NCBI RefSeq assembly: GCF_000027125.1
Contig: NC_017626.1
Strand: one strand, 5' to 3'
Length of the DNA stretch: 64,000 nucleotides
DNA from: Escherichia coli 042
GTDB taxonomy: Bacteria; Pseudomonadota; Gammaproteobacteria; Enterobacterales; Enterobacteriaceae
In this document: piece by piece, positions 10,924-56,654 of the stretch
Position numbering within the stretch: the first letter of the stretch is position 1
Layout of the letters: the number at the start of each line of letters is the position of its first letter
The notes under the pieces: model-generated
The model's database searches: none
Told to the model about the DNA's origin: nothing
The model's input: the letters and a program-made list of their open reading frames with translations, nothing else
Made by a program: the position numbers and the translations under genes

Positions 10924-16987
<6,064 letters not shown>

Positions 16988-17022
16988 TTAATAATAAGTA
17001 ATGTTTGCGCTGTAAATGTAGA

Positions 17023-17039
17023 TTGCAGGGTTCGTGCCA
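17023..17039 (-). promoter_or_regulatory. Sigma-54 promoter (-24/-12) for astCADBE
   Basis: Minus strand reads TGGCACG-AACC-CTGCA, matching the sigma-54 consensus TGGCAC-N5-TTGCW with GG and GC correctly spaced, about 70 bp upstream of the astC start. Confidence 0.6.
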
Positions 17040-17396
17040 GCCAGTGATAAAAGTGCATAAACGGCGGAGGCTAACTGGAAATCAAGGAGTTATAACCAAA
17101 CCATATGCATTTAAAGTGCATATAAAGTGAATACGTTTGCGATGTGGGTGAATAAAAAGAATAAAAAACGCAATGTTATGCAGAAGTAAAATATAATTCT
17201 GGAATTGTGATCATTGACGAAATTTACTGGAAATTACTGCGCCATTCTGACGCAGCGCGCACCAAAAGCGGGCATTTTTTGCGCCATCGTTGACATCATT
17301 AACAACCATCGATCAAATCACTTAACAACAGGCGGTACGCAAAGCGAAATTCTGCTACCATCCACGCACTCTTTATCTGAATAAATGGCAGCGACT

Positions 17397-18203
17397 ATGA
17401 AATTTGTCTCTTTTAATATCAACGGCCTGCGCGCCAGACCTCACCAGCTTGAAGCCATCGTCGAAAAGCACCAGCCGGATGTGATTGGCCTGCAGGAGAC
17501 AAAAGTTCATGACGATATGTTTCCACTCGAAGAGGTGGCGAAGCTCGGCTACAACGTGTTTTATCACGGGCAGAAAGGCCATTATGGCGTGGCGCTGCTG
17601 ACCAAAGAGACGCCGATTGCCGTGCGTCGCGGTTTTCCCGGTGACGACGAAGAGGCGCAGCGGCGGATTATTATGGCGGAAATCCCCTCACCGCTGGGCA
17701 ATGTCACCGTGATCAACGGTTACTTCCCGCAGGGTGAAAGCCGCGACCATCCGATAAAATTCCCGGCAAAGGCGCAGTTTTATCAGAATCTGCAAAACTA
17801 CCTGGAAACCGAACTCAAGCGTGAAAATCCGGTGCTGATTATGGGCGATATGAATATCAGTCCTGGCGACCTGGATATTGGCATTGGCGAAGAGAACCGT
17901 AAGCGCTGGCTGCGTACCGGAAAATGCTCTTTCCTTCCGGAAGAACGCGAATGGATGGAGAGACTGATGAGCTGGGGGTTGGTCGATACCTTCCGCCAGG
18001 CGAATCCGCAAACAGCCGATCGTTTCTCATGGTTTGATTACCGCTCAAAAGGTTTTGACGATAACCGCGGTCTGCGTATCGACCTGCTTCTCGCCAGCCA
18101 ACCGCTGGCAGAATGTTGCGTAGAAACCGGCATCGACTATGAAATCCGCAGCATGGAAAAACCGTCCGATCACGCCCCCGTCTGGGCGACCTTCCGCCGC
18201 TAA
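17397..18203 (+). CDS. xthA: Exodeoxyribonuclease III
   Basis: ORF track 17385..18203 trimmed to ATG at 17397 ([14 protein letters not shown]); 268 aa. Confidence 0.95.
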
Positions 18204-54284: not shown

Positions 54285-54600
54285 AATTAATCATTCCTTA
54301 AACAAATGTTTAGCGGGCGACAAAGTTTACCCGTCAATACATCGAAACCCAACCTTTTTACGTTTTCATTTTTTAAAGTAACTGTTTAATTTTCCTGACG
54401 CGGATGACACCGCGCTTACAGCCAAATGAATTTAGCGTTACTGGCGACCCTGGTCTTTACATTAATTATGCAAAATTTATGGATGAGTTGTTGATATGCC
54501 ATTGAAATTAAGAAAGCCGTGCAGGCAAGTTTTCCATTTGCCATCTACGCTTAATTTTGAAGGTGTATCACCGGGCACGTTGTTCTCATCGTCGATAAAA

Positions 54601-54616
54601 TGGCATGAGAGTTGCT
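54601..54616 (+). promoter_or_regulatory. Candidate sigma-54 promoter for yeaGH
   Basis: TGGCAT-GAGAG-TTGCT matches the sigma-54 -24/-12 consensus TGGCAC-N5-TTGCW, about 105 bp upstream of the yeaG start. Confidence 0.5.
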
Positions 54617-54719: not shown

Positions 54720-56654
54720 ATGAATATATTCGATCACTATCGCCAGCGATATGAAGCTGCCAAGGACGAAGAGTTCACACTGCAGGAGTTTCTTACCACT
54801 TGTCGGCAAGATCGCAGTGCTTATGCCAACGCGGCTGAGCGGCTATTGATGGCTATCGGTGAGCCTGTCATGGTCGATACAGCCCAGGAACCCAGACTTT
54901 CTCGACTCTTTTCTAACCGGGTCATTGCACGTTATCCGGCGTTTGAAGAGTTTTACGGCATGGAAGACGCGATTGAACAGATTGTCTCTTATCTGAAACA
55001 CGCGGCTCAGGGGCTGGAAGAGAAGAAACAAATCCTGTATCTGCTGGGGCCTGTGGGTGGGGGTAAATCATCGCTTGCTGAGCGACTGAAATCATTAATG
55101 CAGCTCGTACCGATTTATGTATTGAGCGCCAACGGTGAGCGTAGCCCGGTCAACGATCATCCGTTCTGTCTTTTCAATCCGCAGGAAGATGCGCAGATTC
55201 TGGAAAAAGAGTATGGCATTCCTCGCCGTTATCTCGGCACCATCATGTCGCCGTGGGCGGCAAAACGCCTGCATGAATTTGGTGGCGATATCACTAAGTT
55301 CCGGGTAGTGAAGGTCTGGCCGTCAATTCTGCAACAAATTGCTATCGCCAAAACGGAACCCGGTGATGAGAACAACCAGGACATCTCCGCGCTGGTTGGG
55401 AAAGTCGATATTCGTAAACTCGAACACTACGCGCAGAATGACCCGGACGCCTACGGCTATTCCGGTGCACTGTGCCGCGCCAACCAGGGGATCATGGAAT
55501 TCGTTGAGATGTTTAAAGCACCGATTAAAGTGCTGCATCCCTTGCTAACCGCCACTCAGGAAGGTAACTACAACGGGACGGAAGGTATCTCCGCCCTGCC
55601 GTTCAACGGGATTATTCTCGCTCACTCGAACGAATCCGAATGGGTCACTTTCCGTAATAACAAAAACAACGAAGCCTTCCTTGATCGTGTTTACATCGTG
55701 AAGGTGCCGTATTGCTTGCGCATTTCCGAAGAGATCAAAATCTACGAGAAATTGCTTAATCACAGTGAATTGACTCACGCCCCCTGCGCCCCTGGCACGC
55801 TGGAAACGCTGTCACGTTTTTCCATTCTTTCGCGCCTTAAAGAGCCAGAAAACTCCAGCATTTATTCAAAGATGCGGGTTTATGATGGCGAAAGTCTGAA
55901 AGACACAGATCCCAAAGCCAAGTCGTATCAGGAATATCGTGACTACGCCGGTGTCGATGAAGGGATGAACGGTCTGTCGACGCGTTTTGCGTTTAAGATC
56001 CTCTCCCGCGTGTTCAACTTCGATCATGTAGAAGTGGCGGCAAACCCGGTTCATCTGTTCTACGTTCTGGAACAACAGATAGAACGCGAGCAGTTCCCGC
56101 AAGAACAGGCGGAACGCTATCTGGAGTTCCTGAAAGGTTACTTGATCCCGAAATATGCCGAGTTTATCGGTAAAGAGATTCAGACTGCGTATCTTGAATC
56201 CTATTCAGAATATGGACAGAACATTTTCGACCGTTATGTTACCTACGCGGATTTCTGGATTCAGGATCAGGAGTATCGCGATCCGGATACCGGGCAGCTG
56301 TTTGATCGCGAGTCTCTTAACGCCGAGCTGGAGAAAATCGAGAAACCGGCGGGGATCAGTAATCCAAAAGATTTCCGCAACGAGATTGTTAACTTCGTAC
56401 TGCGCGCCAGAGCGAATAACAGCGGACGCAATCCGAACTGGACCAGCTATGAAAAACTGCGCACGGTTATTGAGAAGAAAATGTTCTCCAATACCGAGGA
56501 GCTGTTGCCGGTTATTTCGTTTAACGCCAAAACGTCAACCGACGAGCAAAAGAAACACGACGATTTTGTCGACCGTATGATGGAAAAAGGCTACACCCGT
56601 AAACAGGTGCGTTTACTGTGCGAATGGTATTTGCGCGTACGTAAATCGTCTTAA
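54720..56654 (+). CDS. yeaG: PrkA-family serine protein kinase
   Basis: 644 aa ORF with Walker A motif LLGPVGGGKSSLAERL. Confidence 0.9.
   Translation: MNIFDHYRQRYEAAKDEEFTLQEFLTTCRQDRSAYANAAERLLMAIGEPVMVDTAQEPRLSRLFSNRVIARYPAFEEFYGMEDAIEQIVSYLKHAAQGLEEKKQILYLLGPVGGGKSSLAERLKSLMQLVPIYVLSANGERSPVNDHPFCLFNPQEDAQILEKEYGIPRRYLGTIMSPWAAKRLHEFGGDITKFRVVKVWPSILQQIAIAKTEPGDENNQDISALVGKVDIRKLEHYAQNDPDAYGYSGALCRANQGIMEFVEMFKAPIKVLHPLLTATQEGNYNGTEGISALPFNGIILAHSNESEWVTFRNNKNNEAFLDRVYIVKVPYCLRISEEIKIYEKLLNHSELTHAPCAPGTLETLSRFSILSRLKEPENSSIYSKMRVYDGESLKDTDPKAKSYQEYRDYAGVDEGMNGLSTRFAFKILSRVFNFDHVEVAANPVHLFYVLEQQIEREQFPQEQAERYLEFLKGYLIPKYAEFIGKEIQTAYLESYSEYGQNIFDRYVTYADFWIQDQEYRDPDTGQLFDRESLNAELEKIEKPAGISNPKDFRNEIVNFVLRARANNSGRNPNWTSYEKLRTVIEKKMFSNTEELLPVISFNAKTSTDEQKKHDDFVDRMMEKGYTRKQVRLLCEWYLRVRKSS

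What the first reader, a model, noticed from the sequence alone, without database searches (positions are those of the whole stretch)
17023..17039. Strong sigma-54 promoter match upstream of astC
TGGCACG-N4-CTGCA on the minus strand is a near-consensus -24/-12 element, consistent with nitrogen-regulated, enhancer-dependent expression of arginine catabolism. The upstream region also contains ATGCA...TGCAT palindromes that could be activator or ArgR sites.
Basis: partly seen in the sequence, partly recalled or inferred. Interest (0 to 1): 0.25.

Follow-up and report, generated by a model that had tools for sequence, protein, structure and literature searches.

The report
Known sigma-54 promoter of astCADBE

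Summary
CTGGCACGAACCCTGCA lies on the minus strand at 17040-17024. That is 88 nt upstream of the astC start codon (16951), in the astC-xthA intergenic region of an E. coli chromosome.

The identical 17-mer is listed as sigma-54 ChIP-seq site OS17 upstream of astC in E. coli K-12, flagged as experimentally confirmed in EcoCyc (PMC4591121). Salmonella has the orthologous bound site (PMC3844500). NtrC ChIP-seq and RpoN/NtrC gSELEX peaks fall in the same intergenic region. The primary paper is Kiupakis & Reitzer 2002, which I could not read here.

New here is a phylogenetic footprint from 79 distinct orthologous upstream regions in 19 named Enterobacteriaceae genera. TGGCA and TGCA are invariant and sit at a fixed distance from astC, while the spacer varies freely.

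Further upstream there are two conserved NtrC-like dyads at about -225 to -261. A conserved IHF-consensus site sits at about -73.

Mechanism: NtrC~P bound at the enhancer loops to closed sigma-54 holoenzyme, and ArgR-arginine acts as an architectural co-activator.

Novelty: already known. Interest is low.

The parts
17024..17040 (-). Sigma-54 (-24/-12) promoter of astCADBE (astCp2): CTGGCACGAACCCTGCA, with GG at 17038-17037 and GC at 17026-17025
   Evidence: locate it. It is identical to K-12 sigma-54 ChIP-seq site OS17. TGGCA and TGCA are invariant in 79 orthologous sequences.
17012..17014 (-). Predicted sigma-54 transcription start (about 17013), giving a 62-nt leader to the ATG at 16951
   Evidence: Inferred from -12 GC spacing. 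It matches the '62' distance that PMC4591121 computes as 19 bp downstream of the motif centre. No start was mapped here.
17238..17254 (.). Promoter-proximal NtrC-like dyad TGCGTCAGAATGGCGCA (3 mismatches to TGCACC-N5-GGTGCA), centred about -233
   Evidence: One search found it. The GC-N11-GC core is at least 90% conserved across genera. A single site at this stringency is not above chance.
17258..17274 (.). Distal NtrC-like dyad TGCCCGCTTTTGGTGCG, centred about -253 and 20 bp from the first dyad
   Evidence: Several genera have closer-to-consensus versions, for example TGCACCATTCTGACGCG.
17104..17133 (-).
   Evidence: ARG-box consensus hits with 3-4 mismatches, inverted repeat I1, and the most conserved 17-bp window of the intergenic region. 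ArgR binding itself is from the literature only.
17053..17061 (-). Conserved TTTATGCAC just upstream of the -24 element; a third copy of the TATGCA motif (inverted repeat I2 with 17104-17112)
   Evidence: Its function is inferred (ArgR half-site?).
17080..17092 (+). Perfect IHF consensus AATCAAGGAGTTA (WATCAANNNNTTR), centred about -73 between enhancer and promoter
   Evidence: 4 hits in the window against 3.1 expected, so not significant alone. TAA...TTGAT is conserved at 90% or more across genera.
17189..17212 (-). Near-invariant 24-bp block GATCACAATTCCAGAATTATATTT (about -176 to -199); binding protein not assigned
   Evidence: It has a perfect CRP right half (GATCACA) but a poor left half, and an ARG-box match with 4 mismatches at 17202-17185.
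17015..17021 (-). CTACATT immediately after the -12 GC; resembles a sigma-S/sigma-70 -10 element with a C at -13 (possible overlapping stationary-phase promoter)
   Evidence: Inference from the sequence and at least 90% conservation. RpoS dependence of astC comes from the literature. Its position was not verified.
10924..16951 (-). astC-astA-astD-astB-astE operon (arginine succinyltransferase pathway) driven by the promoter
   Evidence: NCBIfam family models: equivalog matches above cutoff for AstA, AstD, AstB and AstE, and subfamily matches above cutoff for AstC. RefSeq annotation of 99.8%-identical E. coli DNA.
17397..18203 (+). xthA (exodeoxyribonuclease III), the divergent neighbour that bounds the regulatory region

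Best explanation
This is astCp2, the sigma-54-dependent promoter of the E. coli astCADBE operon, which encodes the arginine succinyltransferase pathway. Sigma-54 RNA polymerase holoenzyme binds the GG (-24) and GC (-12) elements at 17038-17025 as a stable closed complex. It cannot start transcription alone. Under nitrogen limitation, phosphorylated NtrC binds the tandem dyads about 225-260 bp upstream (17238-17274). NtrC oligomerises, contacts the holoenzyme by DNA looping, and uses ATP hydrolysis to open the promoter. Transcription then starts near 17013, 62 nt before the astC ATG. ArgR-arginine, bound to the AT-rich TGAAT/TGCAT-type repeats between enhancer and promoter, acts as an architectural co-activator that raises expression further when arginine is present ('superinduction'). 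A conserved IHF-like site may help the bend. Shown here: the sequence, its orientation, its strict conservation, and the identity of the genes. Taken from the literature: sigma-54 occupancy, NtrC binding, and the roles of ArgR, RpoS and CRP. Inferred: the exact start site and the assignment of individual conserved blocks to particular proteins.
For: The motif sits at the stated coordinates and is unique in the window. The window is E. coli, and the region is present in 5424 of 5426 complete genomes at 95% identity or more. The downstream genes are astCADBE. The identical 17-mer is sigma-54 ChIP-seq peak OS17, minus strand, astC, 62 nt, PSSM 11.3, EcoCyc-confirmed. The Salmonella orthologue TGGCACGAATGCTGCAAT is bound in ChIP-chip, and the operon is up 2.4-fold with a constitutive enhancer-binding protein (bEBP). 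There is an NtrC ChIP-seq peak at astCADBE with prior direct-binding evidence, and RpoN and NtrC gSELEX peaks in the astC/xthA spacer. astCp has been used as a natural NtrC-dependent, ArgR-bound, weak sigma-54 promoter, and ArgR is described as an accessory activator. All 78 AstA-anchored loci from 19 named genera carry the motif 87-91 nt before the astC ATG. Over the 79 distinct sequences (including the window), TGGCA and TGCA are 100% invariant, whereas spacer positions are only 47-81% conserved. The two NtrC-like dyads have a conserved GC-N11-GC core.
Against: Nothing contradicts it. There are caveats. No transcription start or rpoN/ntrC dependence can be measured with these tools. The primary papers (PMC135064, PMC93598, PMC107427/8) are not held, so published footprint coordinates could not be compared with the conserved blocks. 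Single NtrC-like matches with 3 mismatches are at chance frequency in the window (32 against 32.2). The reported NtrC ChIP-seq interval maps (by my coordinate offset) onto the core promoter, about 200 bp from the dyads, so it does not pinpoint them. RpoS ChIP-seq did not detect astC in one study, which bears only on the second promoter.
Confidence: 0.96

Rival explanations
1. The motif binds sigma-54 holoenzyme but is transcriptionally silent, and ast expression comes only from a sigma-S/sigma-70 promoter. Many sigma-54 sites in E. coli are inert.
For: Most sigma-54 ChIP-seq sites are bound by inactive holoenzyme under standard conditions. astC is strongly RpoS-dependent in stationary phase. 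A sigma-S-like -10 (CTACATT, 17021-17015) overlaps the region.
Against: The site is in the class marked experimentally confirmed in EcoCyc. The operon is NtrC-regulated with direct binding cited. In Salmonella it responds to a constitutive bEBP. The isolated astCp drives NtrC-dependent reporter expression. Strict conservation of GG/GC with a free spacer across 19 genera is the signature of a used -24/-12 element. The two promoters are not mutually exclusive.
Confidence: 0.03
2. The match is a chance occurrence of the -24/-12 consensus with no function.
For: At one mismatch to the general consensus the window has 7 hits against 3.8 expected, so such motifs do arise by chance.
Against: The exact pattern is expected 0.03 times. 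The position and orientation upstream of a nitrogen-catabolic operon are correct. The core is invariant in 79 orthologous sequences while the spacer drifts. Sigma-54 occupies it in vivo in K-12 and Salmonella.
Confidence: 0.01

Closest known systems
astCp2, the sigma-54/NtrC-dependent promoter of E. coli K-12 astCADBE (Kiupakis & Reitzer 2002; EcoCyc; sigma-54 ChIP-seq site OS17 of Bonocora et al. 2015)
   Same: The 17-nt core sequence, the strand, the distance to astC and the flanking genes are all identical. It is the same locus in another E. coli strain.
   Different: Nothing in the core. The window differs from the best-matching deposited genomes by about 0.2% over the 801 nt checked.
Salmonella Typhimurium astC (STM1303) sigma-54 promoter TGGCACGAATGCTGCAAT, activated by ArgR (Lu & Abdelal 1999; Samuels et al. 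2013)
   Same: Orthologous position, identical -24 and -12 elements, NtrC as the assigned bEBP, and ArgR as co-activator.
   Different: Two of the four N4 spacer bases between TGGCACG and CTGCA differ (AATG against AACC).
glnHp2 of E. coli (NtrC-dependent sigma-54 promoter that needs IHF bending)
   Same: A weak sigma-54 promoter with a remote NtrC enhancer and an architectural protein bound in between.
   Different: At glnHp2 the architectural protein is IHF. At astC it is reported to be ArgR-arginine, which adds an arginine signal. The conserved IHF-consensus site seen here at about -73 is not confirmed as functional.
glnAp2 (the prototype NtrC/sigma-54 promoter)
   Same: A -24/-12 core with tandem upstream NtrC dyads and activation by looping.
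   Different: glnAp2 has high-affinity NtrC sites at about -110 to -140 and is strong. The astC enhancer is further away (about -225 to -261), its E. coli dyads each have 3 mismatches, and the first T of TTGC is replaced by C or G in every genus.

Membership tests
Sigma-54 (-24/-12) promoter class | GG and GC dinucleotides exactly 10 bp apart within YTGGCACGrNNNTTGCW | tested here: met
   CTGGCACGAACCCTGCA has one mismatch, the first T of TTGC.
Sigma-54 (-24/-12) promoter class | Intergenic, oriented towards a downstream gene, with a plausible leader length | tested here: met
   It is on the minus strand in the astC-xthA spacer. The predicted start near 17013 is 62 nt before the astC ATG.
Sigma-54 (-24/-12) promoter class | Core elements conserved at the orthologous position while the spacer varies | tested here: met
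   TGGCA and TGCA are 100% conserved in 79 distinct sequences from 19 named genera, against 47-81% at spacer positions 17031-17028.
Sigma-54 (-24/-12) promoter class | Occupancy by sigma-54 holoenzyme in vivo | not testable with these tools
   Literature only: K-12 ChIP-seq OS17 on the identical sequence, Salmonella ChIP-chip and gSELEX.
Sigma-54 (-24/-12) promoter class | Transcription depends on rpoN and on an enhancer-binding ATPase | not testable with these tools
   Literature: marked confirmed in EcoCyc, NtrC assigned as the bEBP, and reporter activity with NtrC.
NtrC (Ntr regulon) enhancer | Two or more adjacent TGCACC-N5-GGTGCA dyads 100-300 bp upstream of the -24/-12 core | tested here: inconclusive
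   Two dyads lie 20 bp apart at 17238-17274, each with 3 mismatches. The GC-N11-GC core is conserved across genera, but single matches at this stringency occur at chance frequency. NtrC binding is from the literature.
ArgR operator (ARG boxes) | Pairs of 18-bp WNTGAATWWWWATTCANW boxes separated by about 3 bp | tested here: inconclusive
   The best boxes have 3-4 mismatches (17132-17115, 17121-17104, 17202-17185), and no clean 18+3+18 pair was found. Conserved TGAAT/ATTCA/TGCAT half-sites recur at 11- and 21-bp spacing. ArgR binding is from the literature only.

The most novel reading that the evidence does not exclude
The promoter itself is not new. The most novel reading left open concerns the cross-genus footprint, which may expose control elements not yet assigned. 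These are a near-invariant 24-bp block (GATCACAATTCCAGAATTATATTT, 17212-17189), a conserved IHF-consensus site at about -73, and an invariant TTAACA in the leader. In addition, the first T of the -12 TTGC is C or G in all 79 sequences and never the consensus T, which may mean selection keeps the promoter weak so that it fires only at high NtrC~P together with ArgR. I could not check these against the primary footprinting papers, so some or all may already be described.
Probability: 0.15. Interest if true: 0.3.

Novelty: already known. Interest (0 to 1): 0.07.

Why it matters
It matters mainly as a positive control. [quoted passage not shown] The promoter integrates nitrogen limitation (NtrC), arginine availability (ArgR) and stationary phase (RpoS) to control the only arginine catabolic pathway that yields nitrogen in E. 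coli. The cross-genus footprint adds modest value: it shows which upstream blocks are under selection and could guide mutagenesis of the unassigned ones.

Tried and rejected
- I tried to read the primary papers: Kiupakis & Reitzer 2002 (PMC135064 and its DOI), Fraley 1998 (PMC107428), Schneider 1998 (PMC107427), Reitzer & Schneider 2001 (PMC99035) and Lu & Abdelal 1999 (PMC93598). None is held, so published NtrC/ArgR footprint coordinates and the sigma-S start site could not be compared with my conserved blocks.
- The supplements of the RpoS paper, which might have held the astC core-promoter oligo, are not held.
- The sigma-70-type consensus scan found no candidate on the astC strand within the spacer. 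The only minus-strand hit lies inside xthA.
- The NtrC consensus with 3 mismatches is not enriched in the window, and the IHF consensus is not enriched either. Both rest on position and conservation, not on match statistics.
- I tested whether the 24-bp conserved block is a CRP site. The right half is perfect, but the left half matches 2 of 5 positions, so it stays unassigned.
- I looked for K-12 sigma-54 site OA03 (near cedA) in the window. The exact 17-mer is absent.
- Chance occurrence and a silent binding site were considered as explanations and rejected (see rival explanations).

Full report
**Observation.**
Read on the minus strand, the window shows ...TTATCACTGG CTGGCACGAA CCCTGCAATC....
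- TGGCACG occupies 17039-17033, the four-base spacer AACC 17032-17029, and CTGCA 17028-17024.
- The pattern TGGCACGNNNNYTGCW occurs once in the 64 kb window on both strands, against 0.03 expected from dinucleotide-preserving shuffles.
- Against the general consensus TGGCAC-N5-TTGCW the site has one mismatch, the first T of TTGC. At that looser stringency the window has 7 hits against 3.8 expected. Sequence match alone is therefore suggestive, not decisive.

**Context.**
- An 801-nt stretch around the site matches 5424 of 5426 complete E. coli genomes at 95% identity or more, with the best at 99.8%. An 81-nt core matches the same 5424 genomes.
- RefSeq annotation of the matching DNA puts the site in the spacer between divergent xthA and astC, followed by astA, astD, astB, astE and then spy.
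- NCBIfam family models score above their curated cutoffs for all five Ast proteins and for XthA: equivalog models for AstA, AstD, AstB, AstE and XthA, and subfamily models for AstC.
- The astC ATG is at 16951.
- With the GC of the -12 element at 17026-17025, the start is predicted near 17013, giving a 62-nt leader.

**What is already known.**
- Bonocora et al. 2015 (PMC4591121) list sigma-54 ChIP-seq peak OS17. Its motif is CTGGCACGAACCCTGCA, its centre is 1830087 (U00096.2), it lies on the minus strand upstream of astC, it is 62 nt from the predicted start to the gene, and its PSSM score is 11.29. [quoted passage not shown]
- That 17-mer is identical to window 17040-17024.
- In Salmonella Typhimurium the orthologous site TGGCACGAATGCTGCAAT is bound by sigma-54 in ChIP-chip. 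The operon is assigned to NtrC (PMC3844500).
- NtrC ChIP-seq in nitrogen-starved E. coli gives a peak at astCADBE, with 'direct binding' credited to Kiupakis & Reitzer 2002 (PMC4066584).
- Genomic SELEX with RpoN holoenzyme, with NtrC, and with both together gives peaks in the astC/xthA spacer. That paper names astC among the few experimentally confirmed RpoN targets (PMC8743547).
- astCp has been used as a natural, weak, ArgR-bound, NtrC-dependent sigma-54 promoter in synthetic enhancers (bioRxiv 10.1101/086108).
- ArgR is described as an accessory, non-essential activator of this sigma-54 operon (PMC3037356).
- The operon is also RpoS-dependent. [quoted passage not shown]
- The primary papers themselves are not in the held library.

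**Independent test by comparison.**
I anchored on AstA, not on the promoter, and fetched 80 loci from one-genome-per-species contigs.
- The loci cover Escherichia, Citrobacter, Salmonella, Enterobacter, Lelliottia, Leclercia, Silvania, Huaxiibacter, Phytobacter, Kosakonia, Pseudenterobacter, Yokenella, Trabulsiella, Pseudescherichia, Atlantibacter, Pluralibacter, Franconibacter, Superficieibacter and Siccibacter.
- In 78 loci the astC start could be located with enough upstream DNA. Every one has TGGCA[C/T][G/A]-N4-[C/G]TGCAAT starting 87-91 nt before the ATG.
- In a MAFFT alignment of 79 distinct sequences, T-G-G-C-A (17039-17035) and T-G-C-A (17027-17024) are 100% invariant.
- Spacer positions 17031-17028 are only 81%, 59%, 47% and 70% conserved. 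The intergenic mean is 74%.
- Invariant contacts with a freely drifting spacer is the expected signature of a used -24/-12 element.
- Position 17028, the first T of consensus TTGC, is C in 55 sequences and G in 24, and never T. This fits the published description of a weak promoter, though selection for weakness is my inference.

**Upstream architecture**.
- *NtrC-like dyads.* Two lie at 17274-17258 (TGCCCGCTTTTGGTGCG) and 17254-17238 (TGCGTCAGAATGGCGCA). They are 20 bp apart, centred about -253 and -233. Each has three mismatches in E. coli. The GC-N11-GC core is conserved at 90% or more, and other genera carry versions nearer the consensus. Single matches of this quality are at chance frequency in the window, so this assignment rests on tandem arrangement, position, conservation and the literature.
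- *Unassigned block.* A near-invariant AAATTTCG...GATCACAATTCCAGAATTATATTT spans 17225-17189. I could not assign it. It has a perfect CRP right half but a poor left half, and one ARG-box match with 4 mismatches.
- *ARG-box-like block.* TATTCACTTTATATGCACTTTAAATGCATA (17133-17104) is the most conserved 17-bp stretch of the spacer. In most genera the last half-site reads TGAATA, the canonical ARG-box half. The best ARG-box matches have 3-4 mismatches, and no clean double box was found. ArgR binding is therefore plausible and reported in the literature, but its exact position was not shown here.
- *IHF-like site.* A perfect IHF consensus AATCAAGGAGTTA lies at 17080-17092 on the plus strand, centred about -73. 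TAA...TTGAT is conserved, though the pattern is not enriched in the window.
- *Proximal motif.* TTTATGCAC (17061-17053) abuts the -24 element.
- *Downstream of the -12 element.* TGCAATCTACATTTACAGCGCAAAC is almost invariant. CTACATT (17021-17015) resembles a sigma-S -10 element with a C at -13. It could be the overlapping stationary-phase promoter, but this is inference only. The simple sigma-70 scan found nothing on this strand within the spacer.

**Mechanism.**
The best-supported account is the standard enhancer-dependent one.
1. Sigma-54 holoenzyme sits as a closed complex on 17040-17024.
2. NtrC~P assembles on the distal dyads under nitrogen limitation.
3. The intervening DNA loops, helped by ArgR-arginine and possibly IHF.
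4. ATP hydrolysis by NtrC opens the promoter.

A separate RpoS-dependent route gives stationary-phase expression. The rival ideas, a chance match or a silent binding site, are excluded by the conservation pattern and the published binding and expression data.

**Verdict.**
The feature is already known. Interest is low. The residual value is the cross-genus footprint and a few unassigned conserved blocks.

Noticed in passing
window 54600-54616 (+): ATGGCATGAGAGTTGCT is a second sigma-54 promoter in the window, upstream of a 644-aa ORF that starts at 54720 (yeaG). It is identical to K-12 ChIP-seq site OS18 (distance 93) and contains the Salmonella yeaG site TGGCATGAGAGTTGCTTT.
   Followed up: partly
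window 17028 (-): The first T of the -12 'TTGC' is C (55 sequences) or G (24) and never T across 79 orthologous astC promoters. This persistent departure from consensus fits the published 'weak promoter' behaviour.
   Followed up: partly
window 17189-17225 (-): AAATTTCG-N6-GATCACAATTCCAGAATTATATTT is nearly invariant across 19 genera and is among the best conserved stretches of the spacer. It has a perfect CRP right half-site but a poor left half. No binding protein could be assigned.
   Followed up: partly
window 17080-17092 (+): A perfect IHF consensus (AATCAAGGAGTTA) lies between the NtrC-like dyads and the sigma-54 core and is conserved as TAA...TTGAT in other genera. The literature read here names ArgR, not IHF, as the architectural factor at astC.
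   Followed up: partly
window 17015-17021 (-): CTACATT directly downstream of the -12 GC is at least 90% conserved and looks like a sigma-S -10 element with a C at -13. It may be the overlapping RpoS-dependent astC promoter. Its position could not be verified because the primary paper is not held.
   Followed up: no
window 16985-16991 (-): An invariant TTAACA(T) hexamer sits in the astC 5' leader, about 35-40 nt before the ATG. Its function is unknown.
   Followed up: no
window 13225-14760 and 17385-18203: The mechanical ORF list extends astD (511 aa against the annotated 492 aa) and xthA (272 aa against 268 aa) to upstream in-frame ATGs. The annotated shorter starts fit the family profiles end to end.
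   Followed up: yes
(E. coli genome search): Two of 5426 complete E. coli genomes lack the astC-xthA region. In two genomes the match lies on a record labelled as a plasmid, which may reflect mis-assignment of replicons.
   Followed up: no
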